Of a stretch of DNA of 64,000 nucleotides, positions 3,530 to 46,821 are shown in pieces (positions within the stretch are counted from its first letter, which is position 1; each line of letters starts with the position of its first letter). The stretch is from an uncultured delta proteobacterium (lineage in GTDB: Bacteria; Desulfobacterota; Binatia; Binatales; Binataceae), in assembly GCA_963724765.1 (NCBI GenBank), contig CAVRVY010000004.1:32001-96000 (forward strand), read 5' to 3'. Position numbers and translations under genes: made by a program. The notes under the pieces were generated by a model. It saw only the letters and a list, made by a program, of their open reading frames with translations, did no database searches and was not told where the DNA came from.

Positions 3530-4029
3530 CTAATTTGAATTCTGGCGAGGCCGGGTAGGCTGTTCAGGAAGTGGGCGCAACTTATTTTCGCGCTCCTTCC
3601 GTTGTTCTGTCCGACCGTAAATAAGCGCGCCGATAAGCGAACCTACCGCGAGAATGATTGCAGCAAAGCCTTCAAGACTTCTCCCTTCTGCGAGTAAATA
3701 GACACCACCGCAGATCACAACGAGTGCGAGAATGAAGGCGAACCATTGACCTCGGCCTTGTGCTTTGCAGTTGCTCTCAACAACCGCCTTTTCAAGCCCC
3801 TGCCTGTGTGCCGACTGCCTTTCTGCCATAGCAACGACGCGCTCAGCGCAACCCAAGCGAACGCGTCGTTGTAACCTTTGAGAAGTTGAGGTGGTGGTAA
3901 AGGCCCAGAGAACTGGAAAGTTTGCTGAACTCTTAATTCGGTAGTTGATCGGCCGGATGCTTCCGCTGGCTCTGAACCCTCGTCGTCAATCTCCGGCTCT
4001 ACCGAATCGTCGTCGTCATTTTCGGCCAT
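3530..4029 (-). pseudogene. DUF2335-like membrane protein, frameshifted near 3855
   Basis: FSGPLPPPQLLKGYND in ORF 3715..4029 continues as GCAERVVAMAERQSAHRQ plus two TM helices in ORF 3530..3856. Confidence 0.8.
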
Positions 4030-4360
4030 GCGCTTGCTTTAAGGGGGTAGCAGTTGCCCTCTTTCTGTGAACAGAATAATCAGTCGCCTTACCGCATGAC
4101 GGGCACACAGAGCGGCCGTCTATCCTTTTTTCCATATTTCCAGATTCATCTTGGTGGACCAAAAACCAAGAATCCCTAAGGGTTTGGCCAACGATGCGCC
4201 AATCGCTATAAAGCGCACGCATATCGGCCTCTTCGGTCGTCCGGCTCACGTTGTAGTCGTCAAATTTGCCCCACAGATCTAGGGCGCGGCCAACTCCCGA
4301 CCAGAACGAGGGTCGCGCATAGAGGAAATCTGCACGGACATCTCTTTCTTCATCACCCAT
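4016..4360 (-). CDS. Hypothetical passenger protein coupled to the DUF2335 gene; C-terminal CxxC
   Basis: ATG ORF overlapping the next start; ADMRALYSDWRIVG motif. Confidence 0.65.
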   Translation of the reverse strand: MGDEERDVRADFLYARPSFWSGVGRALDLWGKFDDYNVSRTTEEADMRALYSDWRIVGQTLRDSWFLVHQDESGNMEKRIDGRSVCPSCGKATDYSVHRKRATATPLKQAHGRK

Positions 4361-4392
4361 GTTTTATATTCTATAGGACAATACCCCTCGAA

Positions 4393-5235
4393 TCAGCAAG
4401 CAAAAGAGCCCTCCTCTCTGGCCGCTTCCAACAGGGTTTCGATAGACCATAGCCGATCCGTGACGCCAGCGGCCATTGCCGGCGTACAGCACAGCGTCCG
4501 ATGGACGCGGACGAAATTGTAATGGGCGAAGTGGAGACAGACCGCCGCTGCGTGATTCACCCGTTTCTTGCTGAAACCGTTGGTCAGCCGTGTAAATCGG
4601 CGCATCTGCATCCGCATGGTTAAATTCCGCTTAACATACGACGTTGAAATGTGCTCATCATCGGGATTGCCGATGATTGGATCGCGTTCGCACTTCATCA
4701 ATATCGACGGAGAGTAGCGGCCACGGCCAGCATTCAACTCCGACGCAAAAACCTTATGAATCTGTGCATAATCGACGTTATTGCCGAACACTTCCATGAT
4801 CGTCCCGTAATACGGCTGAAAAGCATCGCTAGTGATTTGCGGCCTGTTTACAATCCGTCCCTTCAAATCCGCGATGAATTCAGCGTTATCACTCATAGGG
4901 CGTCTTCCGACATGGAAGCTCGGCACTAGCTTGGTATCCGCATCAATGGCAACGAAAGTATAAACGTCACCAAATTCGTCCGTCTTATTGAGCATTCTGG
5001 CGGTTTTCTGCTTCATCCCGACACACGCCCAAATCTCATCAAGCTGGAGACGCTTGCAAGTAAGGCCGCGCATCACGTTGTCCATCAGCCGGTCGCAGCC
5101 GTCACCGACGCTCACCGCCAATCGCATAATGGTGTCTCTGTGAATGCCGGTCATCCTTTCGATGCTACGAATGGAGTTGCCTTCAACTAGTGCTGCAATG
5201 ACTTGACACTGGCATTCACGATCCAGCTTGTTCAT
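4393..5235 (-). CDS. IS1-family DDE transposase, probably inactive
   Basis: N-terminal HTH (VEGNSIRSIERMTGIHRDT), QLDEIW, ITSD, MRMQMRRFTRLTNGFSKK, TPAMAAG; true start MNKLD at 5235. Confidence 0.88.
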   Translation of the reverse strand: MNKLDRECQCQVIAALVEGNSIRSIERMTGIHRDTIMRLAVSVGDGCDRLMDNVMRGLTCKRLQLDEIWACVGMKQKTARMLNKTDEFGDVYTFVAIDADTKLVPSFHVGRRPMSDNAEFIADLKGRIVNRPQITSDAFQPYYGTIMEVFGNNVDYAQIHKVFASELNAGRGRYSPSILMKCERDPIIGNPDDEHISTSYVKRNLTMRMQMRRFTRLTNGFSKKRVNHAAAVCLHFAHYNFVRVHRTLCCTPAMAAGVTDRLWSIETLLEAAREEGSFAC

Positions 5236-5242
5236 ACAAGCA

Positions 5243-5271
5243 AATATACTTGAGCGCATATGCAATATCAA
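5243..5271 (-). promoter_or_regulatory. Sigma70-like promoter, probably leaderless, for the transposase
   Basis: TTGATA-17 bp-TATATT ending 7 nt before ATG 5235. Confidence 0.55.
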
Positions 5272-5370
5272 GCGGATATGCTTGACCACTACTAAGAGAC
5301 AGTTGAGGAAAACTCCGAACCATGCTACAAGAATCAAAGGATCGGAATGCTCCGTGGTTGATGGTAGTTT

Positions 5371-5443
5371 CACGCCCGAGAGGAATTGAACCTCCATCTA
5401 CCGGATTCGAATCCGGTGCTCTGGCCAATTGAGCTACGGGCGC
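5371..5443 (-). tRNA. tRNA-Arg(TCG)-like gene with abnormal 6-nt anticodon loop (possible pseudo-tRNA)
   Basis: Acceptor GCGCCCG/CGGGCGT, D-arm GCTC/GAGC, anticodon arm CCGGA-TTCGAA-TCCGG, T-arm GGAGG-TTCAATT-CCTCT; no encoded CCA. Confidence 0.75.
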
Positions 5444-5496
5444 AAACTCGATCCAGAACCGCTTTGGCGCTGGCACGCTGAGGCGGTTCGCTTTTT

Positions 5497-5940
5497 CTAG
5501 CTGCTATTCACAGTGCCTTCCTTACCGTTGGCTGCCAGAGTTCCCACTAAACTAGCGAACTTTACTCGGCCCTGGTCTGTCAAAGAATATGTCGTTACGT
5601 ACCGTTTATTGACATATCCCGGCCTTCGGTTAATAAGACCTTCAAAATCCAGTTTCTTGCGCTCGCACCACTTTTTGAGGGTGCGCAAGACTGGCGGTAA
5701 ACTCTTTGCTCCAATACCGAGCTCAAGGGCTAGCTGGTCGGTATTGAGGCCGGAAGTGGATTTCAACAGAGCGTTTAGGAACAGCTTGGTGGGTTCGGTC
5801 AGCTCGATAGCTTTGGGTGCTGTTGGCTTAGTCCGATCAACCGAGCGAGGTTTCTGTGTTGGCCGCCTAGATTGCAGCTTGCGCAATTCCTCGATGGTGT
5901 CGCACTCGACAACGCCGTTGGACAACATTCGAAAAGCCAT
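5497..5940 (-). CDS. Hypothetical passenger protein, possible winged-helix
   Basis: Basic ORF with LNTDQLALELG and YSLTDQGR wHTH-like segments. Confidence 0.6.
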   Translation of the reverse strand: MAFRMLSNGVVECDTIEELRKLQSRRPTQKPRSVDRTKPTAPKAIELTEPTKLFLNALLKSTSGLNTDQLALELGIGAKSLPPVLRTLKKWCERKKLDFEGLINRRPGYVNKRYVTTYSLTDQGRVKFASLVGTLAANGKEGTVNSS

Positions 5941-5980
5941 ACGGAAGAAATAGCACAGTTGATGCGGGTCCGCAATCTAT

Positions 5981-6271
5981 CTACTGTGCGGTATCGCCCT
6001 TATCGGCTGTGTGTGAAGGGAGTCCTTGCTGTTGCGGACGTTTCCAGCGCGCAACGGCCGCTTTGCGCGCAATTTCCTTGCGCTTCTTGGCCGACAGCTT
6101 TTCAGCGCGAGCACGTCCGCCCTTCAACCCGCCGAGCCGTCCGAGCGCTACTGCGTTCGGATTTTTGGTTGGATCTTGTTCTTCGACAGGAAGATCACCT
6201 GAAATCGCGTCGATGAGGTTGGCCGCCATCTGGTTAACGTCCGGTTTGCCGGTTCTTGAGCGCTTAGGCAT
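5981..6271 (-). CDS. Small basic KGG-motif protein of the type often found with IS1/IS1595-like elements
   Basis: KNPNAVALGRLGGLKGGRARAEKLSAKKRKEIARKAAVARW. Confidence 0.8.
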   Translation of the reverse strand: MPKRSRTGKPDVNQMAANLIDAISGDLPVEEQDPTKNPNAVALGRLGGLKGGRARAEKLSAKKRKEIARKAAVARWKRPQQQGLPSHTADKGDTAQ

Positions 6272-23443: not shown

Positions 23444-23662
23444 ATGAGTCCCCGGCCCGCCGCGCTCGCCCTGGTCGTCTGGTATCTGATGCGGCCGCCG
23501 CTGCCGCACCTCAACGCTCATGCCATCCATACGGAGGCCGCCGCACCCCTATCGCGATGGATAGTAGTCAGAACCTTCCCTACGCAGAAGAAATGCGAGA
23601 CCCACCGAGCCAACCCGTGGGACCGGTGCATCGCGACCGACGACCCGCGCCTCAAAAAATAA
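23444..23662 (+). CDS. Small secreted two-Cys protein, GWYL...CIATDDPRLK family (copy 2)
   Basis: AALALVVWYLMRPP...APLSRW...CIATDDPRLKK. Confidence 0.75.
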   Translation: MSPRPAALALVVWYLMRPPLPHLNAHAIHTEAAAPLSRWIVVRTFPTQKKCETHRANPWDRCIATDDPRLKK

Positions 23663-23934: not shown

Positions 23935-23939
23935 TTATA

Positions 23940-23988
23940 TGGTGGGCAGGGAGTGAATCGAACACTCGACACGAAGATTTCAGTCTTC
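23940..23988 (-). repeat. att core: duplicated 3' part of tRNA-Phe
   Basis: Identical to 38579-38628 except for one missing T in the anticodon loop. Confidence 0.95.
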
Positions 23989-24052: not shown

Positions 24053-25124
24053 TACCGCCATCAGGGCCGGCAGCGGCGATATGCGATCGGCACCTATCCG
24101 CCGCTCAGCTTGGCCGATGCCCGCGAGGAAGCGCGCAACGCGCTGGCGCGGGTCCAGACCGGCACCGACGTGGCCGAGGTCAAGCAGACCAGCCGGCAGG
24201 GTGACACGTTTGGCGAGCTGGTCGAGCGCTACGGCCGAGCACGCCACGGTCAAGAACAAACCGGGGACGCTGCGCGAGAAACGGAAGCTGGCGAAGGCAC
24301 TCGCACAGTGGGAGCACCGCAAGGCGTGCGACATCACACGCCGCGAAGTAATCGCCCTGGTCGATGGGATTGCGGCACGCGCAGCGCGCATCCGGGCTAA
24401 CCGCATGGTCGCATTCCTAAGCTCGGTGTTCTCGTTCGCGGTCGCCAAGGAGATCGTGCCCGCCAATCCCGCATTCCGCATTCCAAAACCCGGACTTGAG
24501 AATCAGCGCGAGCGCGTGCTGACCGACGCCGAAATCAAGGCCGTGTGGGCGGCGCTAGACAACGAGCCGGCGAGCACCGCGGCGATCTTCAAACTGGCGC
24601 TGTTGACCGGCCAGCGGCGCGGCGAAGTTTGCGGGATGCAATGGGCCGAATTGGACTTTGATTCGGGCTGGTGGAGCATCCCAGCCGAGCGGACCAAGAA
24701 TCGCCTGGCGCATCGCGTGCCGCTCGGCCCACAGGCTCATGCGATCCTGGCCACGCTGAAAGCCGAGGCGCAGAAGGCTTCGCGTCCTTCCGTGTTCGTC
24801 TTCCAGAGTGCGCGACACCTCGGGCAACCGCCGCTCAACATCCACAAGCCCCTAGCCCGACTGATGGCGAGCACGGGCGCCAGTTTCCGAGTCCACGATC
24901 TGAGGCGTACAGCCGCGACGGGCATGGCGCAGATTGGAATCCCGCGCATGGTCATCTCGCAGATCCTCAACCATCGCGAGGGTGGCGTGACGCAAATTTA
25001 TGACCGCTACTCCTACGACCGCGAGAAGCGGATGGCGCTTGCCAAGTGGGATGAGCGCCTGCGTCAGATCGTAACCGGCGAAGCCTCAACCAAGGTAGTC
25101 GAGCTTGACCAGTACCGCGCTTGA
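24053..25124 (+). pseudogene. P4-like tyrosine integrase, N-truncated and frameshifted near 24230
   Basis: Arm-domain tail IGTYPPLSLADAREEA lies in a different frame from the core domain (GQRRGE, TKN, HDLRR, LNH, IYDRY). Confidence 0.88.
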
Positions 25125-26285: not shown

Positions 26286-26612
26286 ATGGCTGATTATTTA
26301 CTCATCGAGTCGCGTGATCCTTTCGAAAGCAACGACACGGCCTACTTTTATGATCTCGCCGAGAGCCTCGTCCGGGAAGGCAACCGCGTTTCGCTGTTCC
26401 TGATTCAGAATGGCGTCCTGCCGACCCGCCGCAGCGAGCGCTCGGCGGCGCTGTCTCGCATAGCGAAGGCCGGCGTCGAATTGCTGGCTGATGATTTTTC
26501 CCTGCGTGAGCGTGGGATCCGCAACGAAAAACTGATAGCCGATGTGCGACCCGCGTCGCTGGATTTTGTGATCGATTGTATGGCCGCAGGCCGCAAAACT
26601 CTCTGGCACTGA
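26286..26612 (+). CDS. DsrH/TusB-like protein (DsrE superfamily)
   Basis: LFLIQNGV, DDFSLRERG, C-terminal W. Confidence 0.75.
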   Translation: MADYLLIESRDPFESNDTAYFYDLAESLVREGNRVSLFLIQNGVLPTRRSERSAALSRIAKAGVELLADDFSLRERGIRNEKLIADVRPASLDFVIDCMAAGRKTLWH

Positions 26613-26628
26613 ACATCGAGGTTCCGCT

Positions 26629-27042
26629 ATGGCTGCGTCGAAAACTCTAACTTTCGCACTGATGGATCCACCTTACGAGAACGCACGCTCGACCACCGCG
26701 TTGCGCCTGATAGATTGCGCGCTCCGGCGCGGGCACAACGTCAACGTCTTCGCTTACGAAGGCGGGGTCGGCCTCGCGTTCGCGAAACAAGCCCCTCATC
26801 CAAACGCAATGCACGGGAGGGACGTTGCCCAGGAGGACCATCCAAATCCGAAAGATTGGATCACTGCGCTACTCAAAGAGGCGGAGCAGCGTGGGACGAA
26901 ACTCGACTGGGTGCAATGCGGCATGTGCGTTGACGAGCGCGGCGCGGGCGAAGCGGTCGCTGGGTTGCGCCGCGGAAGTCCGGCGGATCTTTGGAAGTTC
27001 GCGCAGGCCTCCGACAACACGCTTATCATTCCGAGCAAATAG
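26629..27042 (+). CDS. DsrE/TusD-like sulfur-transfer protein
   Basis: PPY motif, VFAYEGGV, CGMCVDERG at the active-Cys position. Confidence 0.8.
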   Translation: MAASKTLTFALMDPPYENARSTTALRLIDCALRRGHNVNVFAYEGGVGLAFAKQAPHPNAMHGRDVAQEDHPNPKDWITALLKEAEQRGTKLDWVQCGMCVDERGAGEAVAGLRRGSPADLWKFAQASDNTLIIPSK

Positions 27043-27051
27043 GAGCCTTCT

Positions 27052-27438
27052 ATGCCCCGCCGCGTGCTGAACATTATCGAGAGCGCTTATCGGGCCACGA
27101 TCGAGGAGCAGGATGACACGATCGTTTGGCTAAGCTACATGCTGCGAGACGCGGGTGCGGAGCTCAGCGTTCTGCTCCGAGGCAACGCCGTCAACTACGC
27201 TGTCAGCGGACAGGACTGTTCCGGGCTTTCATTTGGGGAGCGACGACAAACGCAGCCGCCGCGCCTCGATCCGGATCTCGTAAAGCTGATGGAAAAGGGC
27301 GTACCAGTCCTCGCGGTCGCAGAAGATCTGACGGAGCGCGGCATCGACTCGCAGGATCTCGTGGGCGGAATCAAGACCATAGCCCGATCCGGTGTGGCTA
27401 AGTTATTCGATTCCTACGACCTGGTCTGGCACTGGTAA
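27052..27438 (+). CDS. DsrF/TusC-like protein
   Basis: LLRGNAVNYAV, EDLTERGI, YDLVWHW. Confidence 0.75.
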   Translation: MPRRVLNIIESAYRATIEEQDDTIVWLSYMLRDAGAELSVLLRGNAVNYAVSGQDCSGLSFGERRQTQPPRLDPDLVKLMEKGVPVLAVAEDLTERGIDSQDLVGGIKTIARSGVAKLFDSYDLVWHW

Positions 27439-27523: not shown

Positions 27524-29067
27524 TCAGGCGGCAGCCTTGGCTGCTACGTCCTTCCGCAGGCGCGTCCATTCGCGCGGCGTCAGCTCCAAGACCAGCCGCG
27601 CCGGATGCGTCGATACCCGCTCGATGACATCGCGCAGATACACGAACGGATTGATCTGTAGGTGCTTGCAGGTCTGCACCAGCGAACACAGGATGGCGGT
27701 GCGATGCGCCGCGGCTTCGCTGCCCGCAAACAGCCAGTTCTTGCGGCCCAACACGATCGGTCGTAGCGCCTGCTCCGCCCCGTTGTTGTCGATCTTGAGC
27801 CGTCCGTCTTCGGCGTAGCGCGTCAGGGCGACCCAGTTGCGCAGCGCGTAGCCGATGGCTGCACCGAGCGGGCTCTTCGGCAACGCCGCCGCCCGCTGCT
27901 CCTGTAGATACGCATGAAGTTTCTCCAGGATCGGCCGCGCCTGCTCCTGCCGCAACTGCTGTCGTGCGGGCGCATCGAGATGCCTGTCGCTGGCCGCCCG
28001 CTCGATCCGGTAGAGCTGCCCGATGATCGCCAACGCCTGCGCGCACGGCACCGCCGCCGTCGGCAGCGCCTCCTTGAAGTACCGGCGGGCGTGCGCCAGC
28101 ATCCGACTTCGATGATCCCGGGATATTGCGCAAACACGTCGTCATAGGCGGGCGCCGCATCCACCTGGAGATACCCACGGTAACCGGCCAGCATCTTCAG
28201 CGGCCCGTCTCGATTACGTGACCAGGTGAAGTCGTAAACCACCTCGCCCAACTCACCCCGATACACCCACAGATGGCCGGTCCGAATCTCTGGCGCTCGA
28301 CTCGGGTCCTGCACATCCAGGGTCGTGTCGTCGCATTGAATCCACGGTGACTGGCATACCTGCTCCCGGTGCATGGCGCGCACGATCGGTTCCAGTAAGT
28401 CTGCCACTGCCCCGTTCCACTCCGAGAGCGTGCGCCGGGTGATCTGCACTCCGTGGCGCTCGAAGATCTGCTCCAGCCGATACAACGGCAAATGGTCCGC
28501 GTACTTGGAGCTGACCACGTGCGCCAATAACCCCGGCCCCGGTCGTCCCTTCTCGATGGGACGCGCCGGCAGGGCGGCTTGCACCACGCCTTGTTGGCAG
28601 CGCCCGCAGGCGTATTTCGGTCGCACATACTCCCGGATTACAAACGAGGCCGGCACGTAGTCCAGCTCCTCGGTGATGTCGGCACCGATGCGCACCTTCG
28701 CGGTATCGCAGTTCGTGCAGTGCCGCGCACTGGCCGGGGGCACTACCTCAATGCGTTCGCGTGGCAGATCGGCTGGCAATCGACGCCGGCCGGGGTGGCG
28801 CCGACGGAGTGATGCAGGTTCGGCGGTCTCGTCCTGTCGTGACTCGTCCGTGGTTTCGGCTTGTACTGGCCCCGCTGCTGCGGGCTCCAAGGGCAGCACC
28901 CCTTGCTCGATTACCGGCACGCCCTTCTCGCTGCGCCGCCCGAACAGCCGATGTGTCAGCAACTGCACCCGCTGGCGCAGCGCCGCGTTCTCTTTGTTGA
29001 GCCGATCGATCTCGTTGCTGAGTTCATCGAGGACTGCCTGGGTCTCTGCGCCGCTTGCCGTCGCCAC
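27524..29067 (-). pseudogene. tnpC: IS66 transposase TnpC, frameshifted near 28100
   Basis: LFGRRSEK, KYADHLPLYR, DDT, GC(W)AHARR split across two frames, IDNNGAE, GRKNWLF. Confidence 0.93.
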
Positions 29068-29134
29068 GTTCCACCACCACCCGAAGATGCTATTACCACA
29101 GTGTATGTGGAATAGCTATTCGCACTGAGTATCG

Positions 29135-29473
29135 TTACCCACCGATGGCTAAGCGAGTATAGCGTCGACGCTCGCGCACGACCTCGATCCCTTCCAGCAA
29201 CAGGTACAGCTCCCGGGCGTTAATCTCATCGCGCTCCAGCGCCGCGAAGGTCCCAGCCTCGAGGCGCTTGTACAGCAGCCAGAACCCGTCCCGCTCCCAC
29301 ACCAGCATCTTCACCCGATTGCGTTGGCGGTTGAAGAATACAAACACGTGGCCTGACAACGGGTCCTGGCGCAGAACCTCCTGCACCTGTGCGCTCAGCC
29401 GATCGAACGACCGGCGTAGGTCGGTAGCGCCGCGGGCGACGAAGACCCGCACCGACGCTGGTAGCGTCAGCAT
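29135..29473 (-). CDS. tnpB: IS66 accessory protein TnpB
   Basis: TDLRRSFD, FVFFNR, KRLEAG motifs (IS66 TnpB, not the RNA-guided TnpB). Confidence 0.92.
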   Translation of the reverse strand: MLTLPASVRVFVARGATDLRRSFDRLSAQVQEVLRQDPLSGHVFVFFNRQRNRVKMLVWERDGFWLLYKRLEAGTFAALERDEINARELYLLLEGIEVVRERRRYTRLAIGG

Positions 29474-29821
29474 GCCGTCTGCAGGGCCTGGAGCACCCGC
29501 TGCAGCGTGTCGGTATCGGCTCCCGCCGGCACCCGCACAACATGCCCGCTGTGCAGGACGATCTCCAAAACCGCTGGTGTCCTTCGGAACGCTCGCCGGT
29601 GGTGGCACTTCGGTGAACACTACCGCGTTCTCCACCGCTGCGCCGTTCCCATCCTCATCGCCGGCATACCGGAAGACCCGCCGCCACCAGCTCAGAGTGC
29701 TCAGTGGGATTCCGCGTTTCTCCCCAAACTCGCGCAGCGTCAACCCGCTACGCTGCCAGCCCGCCAACACCCGGCGCATCTGCCGTGCCCGCACTGATGT
29801 CGTCGACCCCAGGCTCCCCAT
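29467..29821 (-). pseudogene. tnpA: IS66 accessory protein TnpA, frameshifted near 29580
   Basis: WQRSGLT...WWRR HTH; natural tail LEIVLHSGHVVRVP...AC* is in another frame. Confidence 0.8.
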
Positions 29822-31544: not shown

Positions 31545-32276
31545 ATTTACAAAGCCCTCGGATTAAAACACTGATCCCCACTTACCACCTACACCACCAA
31601 CGCGTGACAGAGCAGGATTGATGCCCGGGAGTTTTTCTAGCGCGATTCGCAATATTATCTTTGGATTCCTTATGGTTCTCGCCCACTCTCCTCTACATTG
31701 AGTTGCGCTTCTGCAACGCTCACCCGTACGCGAGCAACGAAAGCGCCAAAGCGCGACGGCGGAATTGCCGGCGGGTGGCCCGGACGGCCAGGGCGGTCTA
31801 CGAAACAGACCTTGCCACTCAGCCGCTTCGATTCAACTACCTTGTTTGATTCTTTCGGCAAGCCATTCGAGCGCGTCCCTGCGCATAGCCTGCGGATCGG
31901 TGAGGCCGTTGTCGGATAACTCCTCTAGGCCGATAACGTCAGGCTCGCTCCTTCGGTAATCGGCGAGCTATTGTCCTTTGCGGCGAGCGCGCACGTAGCC
32001 TTTGTGCCAGTCGCTCTAGATGTATTCTTCATCTTCGAGCATTCTTTCCGCCTCGATATCATTTAGTTGAGGCTTCATCCGCGTCTCTCCGCTTTTGGTT
32101 TCTCCGCGGCCGGATTCAACTCTGGCCCAGCGCCCACCGAAGGGCAGAAGCACTTCAGCCATCAACTGACAAGGGCGAGTGCGGCGTGATGGAACCTCGC
32201 GGCTGGAAAGCGTAGGGCCGCGAACCTGCGGGCGTCGAGGCGCATTGCTAGGCTGCGATCCCGTGGTCCACGATGA

Positions 32277-32364
32277 AGGCCGGTCTAGGAATCGAACCTA
32301 GCGGCAACTGCAGCTGCCCAACGGTTTTGCAGACCGCGGAGAACGCCAGTTCTCTGTACCGGCC
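32277..32364 (-). tRNA. Non-canonical tRNA-Cys(GCA) with Sec-like D-arm and long variable arm
   Basis: GGCCGGT/ACCGGCC acceptor, U73, D-stem GAGAAC-TGGC-GTTCTC, GCGGT-CTGCAAA-ACCGT, V-arm GGCAGC-TGCA-GTTGCC, CTAGG-TTCGATT-CCTAG; followed by TCA rather than CCA. Confidence 0.82.
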
Positions 32365-32405
32365 CAGCCGACCAGGAGGAGTGCAGCGGCGTGGCGGGGC
32401 TTCAC
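32364..32405 (-). pseudogene. 5' module of the GWYL/DDPRLK family fused to the tRNA
   Basis: GTG AAG CCC CGC CAC GCC GCT GCA CTC CTC CTG GTC GGC TGG = MKPRHAAALLLVGW. Confidence 0.8.
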
Positions 32406-32477
32406 ATTCTGCCATCTACCAGAGACGACCAGAAATTCGTCGGACGGCATCGGGGCCCCTAAGAGCGTTTGCGGGCG

Positions 32478-33633: not shown

Positions 33634-33825
33634 TTACGCGCTGGTTAGAGCGGAATCGATGCCACTGGCGAGCGAACCGATGTTGTTGCCCAACTTACGG
33701 TAGGCGCTGTAGACCACGACCGCGATCGCCGCCATGATGAGCGCATACTCGGTCATCGTCTGGCCACGCAGCTTGCGAACCACGGACTCACGAGCACGGA
33801 TGAACATCTTCGTCACTGAATCCAT
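33634..33825 (-). CDS. flp: Flp family type IVb pilin (second copy)
   Basis: RGQTMTEYALI motif, AGGAG RBS. Confidence 0.92.
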   Translation of the reverse strand: MDSVTKMFIRARESVVRKLRGQTMTEYALIMAAIAVVVYSAYRKLGNNIGSLASGIDSALTSA

Positions 33826-37543: not shown

Positions 37544-38016
37544 GACAGAATCTGAGCGATGACGGAACCGCGGGAGATAGAGCGTTGGCCCCGCGGCTAC
37601 ACCGCGCGATGCTCAGCGCCCGGATGTCGGAGACCGCTGAAGAGGAATGGGCAGTGAAAGGCGTCTTGAAGATCGGCTAATGGATGCGTTGAAAATCCCC
37701 GAAGCTATCGGGCCAAGGAAACGCCACTCGGGTGCGCGATAGGCGTGGCGGCGATTATCGTGGGCGTCACCGCATACTTCTTTTTGGCTATGCGGCTGGC
37801 CGAGCGGATATGGAGTCTCCTGTGACGTTTCGTGGACACGGCACAGGTTGTAGAAGGCAACACAACGCCACGTCGGCGCTTAAGGCTGAGGACATCGGGA
37901 TACTCGCGATCCTCTGAGCAAAGGGAATACCCCGCGCCAGAGCCCGTTACGGGCGTTTACAGAGGCCGGAGCCAAAGCTCTGGTCTCTCGCTTTCTTGGC
38001 TGTTAGAAACAGACCG

Positions 38017-38313
38017 ATGAAGCCCCGCCACGCCGCCGCGCTCGCCCTGGTCGGCTGGTATCTGATGATGCCGCCAATTCCGCCCAAGGGCAGCACTCCG
38101 ATGGTCGGCGTTGACGCTCAGGCTCCGCTGTCCAAGTGGACCGTGTCCTCCGGGTTCGACACCGCTGCCGCCTGCCACGTGGCCCACGGTAAACTCCTCG
38201 ATGACGCCGCGAAGCTAGGGAACCCAAAAGAGCTGGAGGTCATACGAATTCAGGTAGCGATGGCTGATTCCCAGTGCATCGCGACCGACGATCCGCGCCT
38301 CAAGGAAAAATAG
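38017..38313 (+). CDS. Small secreted two-Cys protein, GWYL...CIATDDPRLK family (copy 3)
   Basis: MKPRHAAALALVGWYLMMPP...APLSKW...FDTAAAC...CIATDDPRLKEK. Confidence 0.8.
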   Translation: MKPRHAAALALVGWYLMMPPIPPKGSTPMVGVDAQAPLSKWTVSSGFDTAAACHVAHGKLLDDAAKLGNPKELEVIRIQVAMADSQCIATDDPRLKEK

Positions 38314-38578
38314 CGCGTCGCAGACGGCCTGAATGTTCGGGCCAAGATTGGTTTCACGAGGGATACGTCGCGGGAATAGCGTTGGGCGATTTTGCGGGCG
38401 TGGTCTTCACAAGAGAACCAACCACAGCGAAGTGAGAAGCACGAAGACGACGCCGCAAAAGCGAACATTGAGCGATGTTCAGTCGTGAGCGTGGCCCGAT
38501 CTATTACCTAGCTGTTACCTAACCGCCAAGCGCCGGTTTTCTAACTTTCAGGAAATCGTTTGTTCTCGCGCGGTTATT

Positions 38579-38654
38579 TGGTGGGCAGGGAGTGAATCGA
38601 ACACTCGACACGAAGATTTTCAGTCTTCTGCTCTACCGACTGAGCTACCTGCCC
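38579..38654 (-). tRNA. tRNA-Phe(GAA)
   Basis: Canonical 76-nt cloverleaf, CTGAAAA loop, encoded CCA. Confidence 0.97.
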
Positions 38655-45223: not shown

Positions 45224-45552
<329 letters not shown>

Positions 45553-45561
<9 letters not shown>

Positions 45562-46821
45562 CATTCGACCAATTTCGCCGTCTGACTTTTTGCCGTCGCG
45601 CAGACCGCGCCTGAGCGGCGCGCGCCCCTTGGGCGCCGCGGCGGCGTTCGCGCCGCGCGCCGATCGCGCCACAATCGCCTGCGGCGTGACCAGAAAATTC
45701 GCGAGCCGACCCAGCGCGGCGAGGCTGGGAGTGCCCGGCCGGATTTCCGGCGCGAACGCGACCTTCACGCGCGGCGGCAATCCCTCGACGAAGCGGCTCA
45801 CGCGACAGATATCCTCCTCGGCGCACGCCCGATAGGTCTCCAGGTAGGCTAGCGCCGCGGCCACGCCGTCATCGACGGCGCCATCCGCCTCCAGCGCCGC
45901 CCTAAGCCGGTGAATTTCATCGAGCGCACCGTCGTGTATGGATTCGCGGCAGATCGCTTCGTCGAGAAAGCGGTTGATCACGATCGCGCCGAGATGAAGC
46001 CCCTCGGACTCCATCTTGTCGATAACCTTGCGCGCCTGGCGCAGCCGATCGGGCTCGGCGGTGGTGACCAGTACGAAACGCACGGCAGGCGAGCGCAGCA
46101 GCGCGGAGACCTTTCGCATCCGGGCGGCGATCCGTTCCGCCGCGCCGGCGGTGGCGGCAAAGAAGTCTGCGATGGAAGAGAGCGTGTGGCCGCCGGCGAA
46201 GCGCTCCAACTCACGCGCGACGTAGCTCGTGATGCGCCCGGCCAGCCTGAGCGCCAGCGAAGCCGGCCGCCCCGCCGGCTTGAGCAGCCATCGCGCCGCC
46301 TGCGAGTCGAGCAGCCGTATCAGACGCGCCGGCGCCTGCACGAACTCAAAGGCTTGCGCGGCGGGGGGAGTATCAACGACCTCGAGATCGAAATGGCCCG
46401 CGACGTGAAGATCGTGGAGCGCCTCCAGCGCGGCGTAGGCGTCGGAGCCGGCGAACCGGGTGCTGAGACTCTGATAAAAGGCGTTGTCGAAAATGCGCTT
46501 GCGGATGGCCGGGTCGGTCACGTGCTCGGCCACCATCGCGTCCCATTCGCCCTTCACGTCGAGCACCATCGCGCTGAGCTTGAGCGCGGGATCGAGACCG
46601 GCGGCACGCAGGCGGCGCGCGTCGATCCGCGTCTGCTTGCCGCCCAGGCGCGCCAATCCAAGCGCTTCGCGCAGCCGGCGCGCCGGGTCGACCGTGATGA
46701 CCGCGGTGCGCAGATGGGTGGCCGCGGCGGCGAGGCCTAGGGCGGCGGCGATAGTGGTTTTGCCAACTCCGCCGGAGCCCAGGACGACCAGGACGGAGCG
46801 CGGTTTGAGCAATTCCTTCAC
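45553..46821 (-). CDS. ArsA/GET3-family ATPase
   Basis: GSGGVGKTT, TVDPARRL, VVDTPP. Confidence 0.88.

What the first reader, a model, noticed from the sequence alone, without database searches (positions are those of the whole stretch)
32277..32364. Island-borne non-canonical tRNA-Cys(GCA) with a selenocysteine-tRNA-like body
Seen: a fully paired cloverleaf with GCA anticodon and U73, plus a 6-bp D-stem with 4-nt loop (GAGAAC-TGGC-GTTCTC), a 6-bp variable arm, no U8, and either a 7/5 fold with a 3-nt linker or an 8/4 fold with a bulged A. Known: GCA and U73 are CysRS identity elements, ordinary tRNA-Cys has a short variable loop, and the 6/4 D-arm with long V-arm is the tRNA-Sec architecture, echoed in selC*-type tRNA-Cys and allo-tRNA classes. 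Inference: every stem is intact inside an otherwise decayed island, which suggests selection; it could be a Cys donor for a special elongation factor or non-ribosomal chemistry, a Ser/Cys mistranslator, or an anticodon-nuclease decoy. No selB-like gene is visible in the window.
Basis: partly seen in the sequence, partly recalled or inferred. Interest (0 to 1): 0.85.

Follow-up and report, generated by a model that had tools for sequence, protein, structure and literature searches.

The report
Selenocysteine-shaped cysteine tRNA on an island
This is a real, intact-looking tRNA gene shaped like a selenocysteine tRNA but carrying the cysteine anticodon and discriminator, so it belongs to an already described class (selC*/tRNAReC), here as cargo of a decayed genomic island in a soil bacterium.

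Summary
On the minus strand at 32277-32365 lies a 89-91 nt tRNA gene. ARAGORN calls it tRNA-Cys(GCA), and Rfam matches it best to the tRNA-Sec model (61.9 bits, cut-off 47). It has a 6-bp D stem with a 4-nt loop, a 6-bp variable arm, 5-bp anticodon and T stems, a 7-bp acceptor stem with a possible eighth G.U pair, and U at the discriminator. Eight related copies show compensatory changes, chiefly in the D stem. This anatomy matches the published selC* tRNACys, also called tRNAReC: charged by CysRS, carried by SelB, reading UGA+SECIS as Cys. The genome has selA, selB, selC, a UGA-containing selD, one cysS and a normal tRNA-Cys, but no second selB or cysS. The gene sits in a 14.6-kb island at tRNA-Phe, and its 5' end abuts a truncated ORF start. 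Relatives are rare, occur in four phyla, and about half are decayed. Expression and charging were not shown. Verdict: a new member of a known kind, of moderate interest.

The parts
32277..32365 (-). tRNA gene with a tRNA-Sec-like body, GCA anticodon and U discriminator. G at 32365 is either position -1 or position 1, and U at 32277 is accordingly position 73 or 72.
   Evidence: ARAGORN, Rfam RF01852 at 61.9 bits, fold.
32358..32364 (-). Acceptor stem, 5' strand GGCCGGU. It pairs with 32278-32284.
   Evidence: Fold. Across relatives, the 7 pairs are 93.9% paired.
32339..32354 (-). D arm: 6-bp stem GAGAAC/GUUCUC with 4-nt loop UGGC.
   Evidence: Fold. In 8 relatives, 5 of the 6 pairs show changes on both sides.
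32321..32337 (-). Anticodon arm: 5-bp stem, loop CUGCAAA, anticodon GCA at 32328-32330.
   Evidence: The loop is invariant in alignment A1.
32303..32318 (-). Variable arm: 6-bp stem with a 4-nt loop.
   Evidence: Fold. Intact relatives keep a hairpin of 5-8 bp here although the sequence differs.
32285..32301 (-). T arm: 5-bp stem CUAGG/CCUAG with loop UUCGAUU.
   Evidence: Fold. The stem is 100% paired in relatives, and the outer pair is CG in 6 and UA in 1.
32278..32284 (-). Acceptor stem, 3' strand ACCGGCC. It is followed by U (32277) and U (32276), and no CCA is encoded.
   Evidence: Sequence. By a crude test, 47 of 59 ARAGORN calls in this genome carry CCA at the 3' end, and this gene does not.
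32364..32435 (-). 5' flank, made of the upstream region and first 14 codons of a small paralogous ORF family (MKPRHAAALALVGW...). It joins the tRNA at a GG microhomology.
   Evidence: blastn against the genome and the printed alignment. The same junction plus the first 16 nt of the tRNA recurs, truncated, at G000:C1:471177-471223.
23935..23988 (.). Left island boundary: a partial copy of the 3' part of tRNA-Phe.
   Evidence: It is 96% identical over 55 nt to 38574-38628.
38579..38654 (-). tRNA-Phe(GAA), the integration site and right island boundary.
   Evidence: ARAGORN, Rfam, repeat.
24081..25124 (+). Tyrosine integrase of the island.
   Evidence: Pfam Phage_integrase, E 2.7e-26.
27823..29821 (-). 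IS66-family insertion: transposase at 27823-29067 and TnpB-like ORF at 29135-29821.
   Evidence: Pfam DDE_Tnp_IS66, zf-IS66 and TnpB_IS66.

Best explanation
This is a gene of the selC* tRNACys / tRNAReC kind: a tRNA with the architecture of bacterial tRNA-Sec that has the cysteine identity marks.

Shown here: the architecture, namely a 6-bp D stem with a tetraloop, a long variable arm, and an acceptor that can stack 8+5 pairs through a G.U pair at its end. The Cys marks (anticodon GCA, discriminator U) are also shown.

Inferred from the published behaviour of the class:
- The genome's single CysRS charges it with cysteine.
- The extended acceptor/T helix lets the genome's single SelB carry it to UGA codons followed by a SECIS, so that Cys is inserted where Sec is encoded. 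This genome's own selD has such a UGA.
- It may also read UGY codons.

The gene arrived by horizontal transfer inside an island integrated at tRNA-Phe. Whether it is still expressed here is not shown, and I put that at roughly even odds.
For: Structure:
- ARAGORN calls tRNA-Cys(gca), and the best Rfam family is tRNA-Sec at 61.9 bits; the genome's true selC scores 70.2.
- All stems are intact, z = -3.33.

Relatives:
- In 8 relatives, 95% of pair cells are paired, against 87.8% in shuffles (0 of 500 shuffles reach it). Five of 6 D-stem pairs show double changes.
- The outer pair of G or A with U holds in 7 of 7, as GU in 6 and AU in 1.
- U after the 7-bp stem is present in 7 of 7 full-length copies.
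- Between the window and metagenome copy L265, the 93 bases of the tRNA are 93.5% identical and the flanks do not align. The differences fall in the linker, the base of the variable arm and the variable-arm loop region.

Genome:
- It holds selC(UCA), one selB, selA, a selD with one in-frame TGA at the active-site Cys/Sec position, and one cysS.
- All 5 other host genomes tested also have a selC(UCA).

Literature:
- U73 and GCA are the main CysRS identity elements. selC* tRNACys carry U73 with GCA or UCA, and occur in genomes with complete selABCD (PMC5389517, sections 13 and 17 read).
- tRNAReC is defined as at least 80 nt, UCA or GCA anticodon and discriminator U. It decodes UGA+SECIS as Cys with both anticodon types (passages of PMC13582414, citing Vargas-Rodriguez 2018, which I could not read).
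Against: - No RNA data: no RNA run holds the locus.
- No sigma-70 promoter or terminator consensus lies nearby.
- No CCA is encoded, although most tRNA genes of this genome encode it.
- The native 5' flank has been replaced by a truncated ORF start.
- The surrounding island is largely without recognisable genes and is IS-invaded.
- Family members are often broken. G002 has stem mismatches and an altered T loop, with no ARAGORN or Rfam call. L106 has two D-stem mismatches. L264 is cut in the T loop.
- Co-occurrence with selC is weak evidence, because 45 of 60 relatives have a tRNA-Sec match anyway.
- The one relative with an encoded CCA (L040, in a genome whose neighbouring tRNAs encode CCA) places it right after the 7-bp stem plus U. 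That favours 7/5 with G-1 over a true 8/5. SelB binding is thought to need the 8-bp stem.
- The published selC* hosts are anaerobes of other phyla.
Confidence: 0.6

Rival explanations
1. It is a hitch-hiking relic: a tRNAReC-type gene carried in by the island that is no longer expressed or used. It looks intact only because it is young or by luck.
For: - The island is decayed and IS-invaded.
- The 5' flank is a recombination junction with a truncated ORF, and a second copy of that junction is cut after 16 nt of the tRNA.
- No CCA is encoded and no promoter or terminator consensus was found.
- Both other copies found among the 164 other genomes of the same family are decayed.
Against: - All five stems and the T and D loop signatures are intact.
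- It has the highest Rfam score of its family, 61.9 against 59.8, 59.3, 45.6, 41 and 33.7.
- A second allele (L265), in a different context, differs only outside the acceptor, D, anticodon and T stems.
- The upstream ORF-start fragment brings its own 5' region, which could drive transcription.
Confidence: 0.25
2. It is an ambiguous Ser/Cys adaptor used by EF-Tu in ordinary elongation. SerRS would charge it through the long variable arm, or CysRS through U73 and GCA, and it would read UGY codons, as some allo-tRNAs insert Ser at non-Ser codons.
For: - The long variable arm and U73 are compatible with SerRS, and allo-tRNAs with Sec-like D arms were active with EF-Tu in E. coli (PMC5389517, sections 13 and 15).
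- L040 supports a 12-bp 7/5 acceptor branch.
Against: - GCA and the U discriminator are invariant in the family, which points to CysRS.
- The family does not have the 8/4 or 9/3 branch that defines allo-tRNAs.
- The purine at -1 pairs with U in 7 of 7 copies, which suggests an extended stem.
Confidence: 0.07
3. It is a true tRNA-Sec with a sense anticodon: charged by SerRS, converted by SelA, and inserting Sec at UGC/UGU codons followed by a SECIS.
For: - It has a tRNA-Sec body and the genome has a complete sel machinery.
- 50 of the 120 long-arm GCA tRNAs found by my pattern carry G before CCA, as tRNA-Sec does.
Against: - This family has U, not G, at the discriminator in either register in the window copy.
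- U73 with GCA would make it a CysRS substrate.
- The genome already has a normal selC(UCA).
Confidence: 0.05
4. It is a decoy or spare tRNA of a mobile element, for example against anticodon nucleases, or a substrate for non-ribosomal chemistry.
For: It lies in mobile DNA in at least three contexts: integrases, IS66 and IS3 nearby.
Against: - Apart from integrases, no gene is shared between the contexts of the family members. In the window and flanking regions that Pfam scanned, no nuclease, toxin-antitoxin or peptide-tRNA ligase gene was found, though many of those ORFs had no match.
- Two viral scans gave no family member. The hits of the loose viral pattern were not analysed.
Confidence: 0.03

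Closest known systems
selC* tRNACys, also called tRNAReC (Mukai et al. 2017, NAR, PMC5389517, sections 13-17 read; Vargas-Rodriguez et al. 2018, RNA Biol, not held and known to me only through citing passages and recall)
   Same: - tRNA-Sec-like body with a long variable arm and an extended acceptor.
- U discriminator and GCA anticodon.
- It coexists with a normal tRNA-Cys, a true selC and complete selABD.
- It meets the working definition in PMC13582414: at least 80 nt, GCA or UCA anticodon, discriminator U.
   Different: - The host is a soil or peat bacterium of the same GTDB family as a MAG titled Candidatus Binataceae. It is not one of the anaerobic Firmicutes, Thermodesulfobacteria, Nitrospirae or delta-proteobacteria named in 2017.
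- There is no adjacent selB* or cysS*.
- The branch is 7/5 or 8/5 with a G.U (once A-U) terminal pair, not the 8/4 with bulge A51a.
- No CCA is encoded.
- It is carried in islands, is patchy across phyla and is often decayed.
Bacterial tRNA-Sec (selC), Rfam RF01852
   Same: - 6-bp D stem with a 4-nt loop, long variable arm, 5-bp T stem and a possible 8-bp acceptor.
- It scores above the family's gathering cut-off.
- Its architecture parallels the genome's own selC.
   Different: - The anticodon is GCA, not UCA, and the discriminator is U.
- The linker is 3 nt (ACA) rather than the 2 nt of the genome's own selC.
- The eighth acceptor pair is a G.U wobble.
tRNA-Sec with a GCA sense anticodon (Mukai et al. 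2016, Angew Chem; recalled and cited in PMC7609411, paper not held). Seen here as the Burkholderiales-type sequences.
   Same: tRNA-Sec shape with a GCA anticodon.
   Different: The Burkholderiales-type sequences are 8/5. In the pattern hits as a whole, 50 of 120 carry G before an encoded CCA. The window's family has U and mostly no CCA.
allo-tRNA (Mukai et al. 2017)
   Same: - Sec-like D arm and long variable arm.
- Found in soil bacteria including Acidobacteria.
- Often near mobile or toxin-antitoxin genes, and often as pseudogenes (section 16).
   Different: - allo-tRNAs are defined by an 8/4 or 9/3 acceptor branch and by diverse, mostly non-cognate anticodons.
- Here the 8/4 fold fails and the anticodon is invariant GCA.

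Membership tests
selC* tRNACys / tRNAReC | Long tRNA (at least 80 nt) with a long variable arm and a tRNA-Sec-like body | tested here: met
   89-91 nt, 6-bp variable arm, 6-bp D stem with tetraloop. The best Rfam family is tRNA-Sec at 61.9 bits.
selC* tRNACys / tRNAReC | Anticodon GCA or UCA | tested here: met
   GCA at 32328-32330. It is invariant in 8 of 8 relatives.
selC* tRNACys / tRNAReC | Discriminator U73 | tested here: met
   U at 32277 and U at 32276, so the discriminator is U in both the 7/5 and 8/5 registers. The U after the 7-bp stem is present in 7 of 7 full-length relatives.
selC* tRNACys / tRNAReC | Acceptor stem longer than 7 bp (8-bp stem, needed for SelB) | tested here: inconclusive
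   An eighth pair of G or A with U is possible in 7 of 7 copies, as GU in 6 and AU in 1. However, L040 encodes CCA in the 7/5 register. The RNase P cleavage site is unknown.
selC* tRNACys / tRNAReC | The genome also encodes canonical tRNA-Sec and selA, selB and selD | tested here: met
   selC, selB, selA, selD with UGA. The 5 other host genomes tested also have selC. Control: 45 of 60 relatives have a tRNA-Sec match regardless.
selC* tRNACys / tRNAReC | Charged with Cys by CysRS, bound by SelB, and recodes UGA+SECIS as Cys | not testable with these tools
   This needs aminoacylation, binding and reporter assays. One cysS and one selB are present.
selC* subgroup with selB*/cysS* (Syntrophobacterales, Desulfobacterales) | A second selB, and sometimes a second truncated cysS, downstream of the tRNA | tested here: not met
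   Only one match above the cut-off for TIGR00475 and one for TIGR00435 in the whole genome, and neither lies in the window.
allo-tRNA | 12-bp acceptor branch arranged 8/4 or 9/3 | tested here: not met
   The 8/4 pair 10-87 is unpaired in 3 of 7 copies. The competing T-stem pair 70-87 is paired in 7 of 7, with one double change.
Bacterial tRNA-Sec (selC) | UCA anticodon (or a sense anticodon) with a G or A discriminator; Ser then Sec identity | tested here: not met
   The anticodon is GCA and the discriminator is U. The genome's true selC has UCA and A before CCA.
Canonical tRNA-Cys | Class I tRNA: 4-5 nt variable loop and a 3-4 bp D stem | tested here: not met
   It has a 6-bp variable arm and a 6-bp D stem. 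The genome's canonical tRNA-Cys is 76 nt.

The most novel reading that the evidence does not exclude
This family may be a mobile Sec-to-Cys recoding cassette. Under this reading a tRNAReC-type gene moves between phyla (Binatota, Planctomycetota, Acidobacteriota, Actinomycetota) as a single-gene module inside tRNA-targeting islands and beside insertion sequences. It would work with whatever SelB and CysRS the recipient has. Hosts whose SelD is itself a selenoprotein could then make a Cys form of SelD and restart selenoprotein synthesis after selenium starvation. Its 8th acceptor pair would be formed by a retained G-1 opposite the discriminator U, as in tRNA-His. That would be a new way of building the 13-bp helix.
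Probability: 0.15. Interest if true: 0.6.

Novelty: new member of a known kind. Interest (0 to 1): 0.35.

Why it matters
If functional, this tRNA lets one codon context (UGA+SECIS) be read as Cys or Sec depending on which tRNA SelB picks up. That is a natural case of conditional genetic-code ambiguity.

Finding such a gene as island cargo, in soil lineages far from the anaerobes where the class was described, would show that the recoding trait can spread as a single 90-nt module. The many broken copies also give a natural series for asking how quickly such a module is lost.

For annotation, it shows that tRNA-Sec model hits with a GCA anticodon and a U discriminator should be labelled tRNAReC-like rather than selC or tRNA-Cys.

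Tried and rejected
Fold. The 8/4 fold with a bulged A is rejected by the pair counts.

Extra factors. A search for a second selB or cysS found none.

Integration target. I tested whether the odd tRNA is itself an integration site. No second copy of its 3' 20 nt occurs in the window at up to 3 mismatches.

Promoter and terminator scan. Nothing was found. This is uninformative for an organism of this type.

Expression. No RNA holder is listed for the locus. The contigs of 4 DNA runs laid on it show only that the same sequence occurs in soil and peat samples, including a contig bridging the junction at 32364/5. This says nothing about expression.

Relatives by blastn.
- 60 relatives: one hit, G002.
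- A 400-genome class sample: six weak partial hits. One is a true selC and five have no tRNA call.
- All 164 other genomes of the family: two hits, both decayed.

Pattern scans.
- The metagenome pattern gave 23 loci, of which 5 were new family-member contigs. Three of those overlap one another. One further locus, L274, repeats L040.
- The viral scan with the family pattern gave 2 loci, both ordinary tRNA-Cys.
- The hits of the loose viral pattern (116 loci) were not analysed.

Shared neighbours. Among ORFs of at least 70 aa around 5 relatives and the island, only integrases are shared.

Second Sec-like hit. The second hit in relative G040 is a tRNA-Leu(UAA) call, not a tRNAReC.

Literature.
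- Vargas-Rodriguez 2018 (PMC6103700) and Mukai 2016 (PMC4833512) are not held.
- Supplementary tables of Mukai 2017, which list the selC* genes, are closed, so I cannot say whether this family is already listed there.
- The searches turned up no paper describing an island-borne tRNAReC. One search was too broad to be a real test.
Full report
WHAT IS THERE

The minus strand of 32275-32365 encodes a tRNA. ARAGORN calls it tRNA-Cys with anticodon GCA, 91 nt long. Against all of Rfam, its best family within the tRNA clan is RF01852, tRNA-Sec, at 61.9 bits (gathering score 47, E 3.6e-10), over 32277-32365.

Read 5' to 3', the RNA is: G, GGCCGGU, ACA, GAGAAC-UGGC-GUUCUC, C, GCGGU-CUGCAAA-ACCGU, UG, GGCAGC-UGCA-GUUGCC, G, CUAGG-UUCGAUU-CCUAG, ACCGGCC, U, U, C. 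The minimum-free-energy fold is this cloverleaf with the first G paired to the first trailing U. The energy is -41.5 kcal/mol, z = -3.33, and 0 of 200 shuffles fold as well.

The D loop keeps GG, the T loop keeps UUCGA, and position 33 is U. No CCA is encoded. By a crude test, 47 of 59 ARAGORN calls in this genome do carry CCA at their 3' end, including the canonical tRNA-Cys and selC.

THE GENOME AROUND IT

The window is G000:C4:32001-96000, part of a four-contig, 5.4-Mb, 62% G+C assembly. That genome has:
- an ordinary 76-nt tRNA-Cys(GCA) at C1:1125925-1126000;
- a true selC (UCA anticodon, 8/5 branch, CCA encoded, 70.2 bits) at C3:1323593-1323688;
- one selB above the family cut-off and one selA;
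- one selD next to selB, with a single in-frame TGA in the motif AAGUAGK, the place I recall as the active-site Cys of E. coli SelD;
- one cysS.

There is no second selB and no second cysS. The genome belongs to the same GTDB family as a MAG whose record is titled Candidatus Binataceae bacterium. That MAG is locus L106, reached as G410 and again as G457 at the same contig coordinates.

THE ISLAND

A 55-nt stretch at 23935-23988 is 96% identical to 38574-38628, the 3' part of tRNA-Phe(GAA) at 38579-38654. A tyrosine integrase gene lies just inside the left repeat, at 24081-25124. Together these bound an island of about 14.6 kb integrated at tRNA-Phe.

The island contains:
- three DsrE/DsrH-like ORFs at 26286-27438;
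- an IS66-family insertion at 27823-29821;
- a short Flp-pilin-like ORF;
- otherwise ORFs without family matches.

G+C drops to 0.54-0.59 between 30 and 38 kb, against 0.63-0.70 outside the island.

The tRNA's 5' flank is not a tRNA leader. From 32364 to about 32435 it is homologous to the upstream region and the first 14 codons of a small ORF family (MKPRHAAALALVGWYLM...). A full copy of that ORF lies at 38016-38313, and others lie elsewhere in the genome. The homology ends at ...GGCTGG, and its last two G overlap the first two G of the tRNA. The same junction, followed by only the first 16 nt of the tRNA, occurs at C1:471177-471223. So the gene has been through at least one illegitimate recombination and one duplication.

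RELATIVES

By blastn:
- Among 60 relatives there is one hit, in a genome of the same genus (G002, locus L010, 83% identity). That copy has acceptor and anticodon-stem mismatches and a T loop changed to UUUGAUUU. Neither ARAGORN nor Rfam calls it.
- A 400-genome sample of the class adds nothing.
- All 164 other genomes of the family add only the Binataceae MAG copy. It has two D-stem mismatches and scores 33.7 bits.

ARAGORN calls a long tRNA-Cys(gca) in 112 of those 120. A G precedes an encoded CCA in 50, a U in 43, a C in 1, and 26 have no CCA in register. Sequences from Burkholderiales-titled records, such as Rubrivivax, show the 8/5 form ending in G-CCA. Sequences from Nitrospirota and Thermodesulfovibrionales records show the form ending in U-CCA. 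Long-armed GCA tRNAs with a U discriminator are therefore common.

Four of the 120 are close to the window's gene:
- L106, Binataceae;
- L138, a Planctomycetia MAG;
- L019, a Solibacteraceae MAG;
- L040, a Thermoleophilia MAG.

A family-specific pattern in metagenomes gave 23 loci:
- L274 repeats L040.
- Five are new family-member contigs. L265, L278 and L282 overlap one another and are identical where they overlap. They are 93.5% identical to the window over the tRNA. L264 is cut inside the T loop.

The same pattern in viral contigs gave only ordinary tRNA-Cys genes.

Between the window and L265 the alignment covers only the 93 bases of the tRNA, and the flanks do not align. The differences are one base in the linker, one at the base of the variable arm, and an indel with a neighbouring substitution in the variable-arm loop region.

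The genomic contexts are:
- two integrase genes and a tRNA-Thr fragment near L106;
- an IS3-type transposase remnant 250 nt from the tRNA in L265;
- a tRNA-Lys fragment 1 kb from the G002 copy;
- metabolic genes around L019, and ORFs without matches around L138 and L040.

Apart from integrases, no gene is shared between these contexts.

STRUCTURE FROM COVARIATION

I aligned 8 sequences (A1) and counted pairs for the cloverleaf.
- 95.0% of 180 cells are standard pairs, against 87.8% in shuffles (0 of 500 shuffles reach it) and 34-57% when the partners are slid.
- 8 of 24 pairs show changes on both sides.
- In the D stem, 5 of 6 pairs do so: GAGAAC/GUUCUC, GGGGAC/GUCCCC, GUCGGC/GCCGGC, GGAGGC/GCUUCC.
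- The outer T-stem pair is C-G in 6 and U-A in 1, with none unpaired.

It is unpaired in 3 of 7, so that fold is rejected.

The base before the 7-bp stem pairs with the U after it in 7 of 7 copies, as G.U in 6 and A-U in 1. An eighth pair is therefore plausible.

Two registers remain:
- 8/5 with a G1.U72 pair. The next base is then the discriminator: U in the window, L265 and L138, but C or G in the others.
- 7/5 with an invariant U73 and a conserved purine at -1 lying opposite it.

L040 lies in a genome whose neighbouring tRNA-Ser and tRNA-Arg genes encode CCA. It has CCA directly after that U, which favours the second register. In the window copy the discriminator is U in either register.

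The intact members keep a variable-arm hairpin of 5-8 bp despite unrelated sequences.

WHAT IT IS

This anatomy is that of the selC* tRNACys of Mukai et al. 2017 (PMC5389517; I read sections 13 to 17). These are tRNA-Sec-like tRNAs with U73 and a GCA or UCA anticodon. They are found in genomes that also have the complete selA, selB, selC and selD set. Some delta-proteobacterial subgroups add a dedicated selB* and cysS*.

A 2026 paper (PMC13582414; passages seen) uses the later name tRNAReC. It defines the class operationally as tRNAs of at least 80 nt with a UCA or GCA anticodon and discriminator U. It summarises Vargas-Rodriguez et al. 2018 as showing that such tRNAs allow UGA followed by a SECIS to be decoded as Cys, with either anticodon. 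I could not read the 2018 paper. My recollection of its abstract is that a clostridial member is charged by CysRS and recognised by SelB. That is recall, not a tool result.

The window's gene meets the operational definition and the genomic-context criterion. It does not have the selB*/cysS* neighbours. It does not show the 8/4 branch with a bulged A51a that was described for some members.

HOW IT MOST LIKELY WORKS

Shown: the fold, the identity marks, the covariation, and the presence of one CysRS, one SelB and UGA-containing selenoprotein genes such as selD.

Inferred from the class:
1. The gene is transcribed, possibly from the 5' region of the truncated ORF.
2. RNase P and the CCA-adding enzyme process the transcript.
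3. CysRS charges it with Cys through U73 and GCA.
4. SelB binds it if the eighth pair forms.
5. Cys is delivered to UGA+SECIS sites.

In a genome whose SelD itself needs Sec, this would provide a Cys form of SelD when no selenophosphate is available. This last idea is my inference. It follows the logic of the selD reporter in section 17 of Mukai 2017.

CAUTIONS
- Nothing shows expression.
- About half of the family copies are broken.
- The co-occurrence with selC (6 of 6 host genomes) carries little weight, because 45 of 60 relatives have a tRNA-Sec match anyway.

VERDICT

The object is a new member, in new hosts and a mobile context, of a class described in 2017-2018. It is not a new kind of tRNA.

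Noticed in passing
window 5370-5444 (minus strand): A tRNA-like gene that scores 60 bits on the Rfam tRNA model. Its anticodon arm is a 7-bp stem closed by a 4-nt loop (CGAA), so it has no usable anticodon; ARAGORN labels it tRNA-???. It lies in a low-G+C patch (0.514 at 4001-6000)..
   Followed up: partly
G000:C1:1040721-1040913: Two adjacent irregular tRNA-like genes. One is 95 nt, with a roughly 10-bp anticodon stem, a 4-nt loop and a long variable arm, and ends in CCA. The other is a 74-nt call with a UCA anticodon..
   Followed up: no
window 26286-27438 (plus strand): Three consecutive DsrE/DsrF/DsrH-like (sulfur-relay type) ORFs inside the same island, just before the IS66 insertion. They are not found next to the other family members..
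   Followed up: partly
window 38016-38313, 23457-23655, 32364-32435; also G000:C3:941739-941985 and C2:30423-31130: A small paralogous ORF family starting MKPRHAAALALVGWYLM. In the window, two copies lie about 260 nt before a tRNA-Phe 3' end or its repeat. One truncated copy forms the 5' flank of the odd tRNA..
   Followed up: partly
G000:C3:660784-660830, C3:706573-706617, C3:181828-181877, C1:650016-650062: Four copies of the same 45-50 nt 3' part of tRNA-Thr(CGT), which suggests several islands integrated at or derived from that tRNA. The fragment is identical to one in the Binataceae MAG locus L106..
   Followed up: no
G000:C3:1462704-1463630: selD carries one in-frame TGA in the motif AAGUAGK, so SelD is itself a selenoprotein here. 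It lies directly beside selB..
   Followed up: partly
loci L020-L136 (genome contigs): Many MAGs and isolates titled Burkholderiales, Rubrivivax, Piscinibacter, Rhodoferax and the like carry an 8/5 tRNA-Sec-shaped gene with a GCA anticodon and G-CCA. They make up a large share of the 50 G-CCA sequences among 120 pattern hits..
   Followed up: partly
window 33634-33825 (minus strand): A short Flp/Fap-pilin-like ORF (Pfam E 4e-5, below the family cut-off). It has paralogues at 83-97% DNA identity on all four contigs..
   Followed up: no
window 45226-45563 (plus strand): Bacterial RNase P RNA class A, 281 bits..
   Followed up: no
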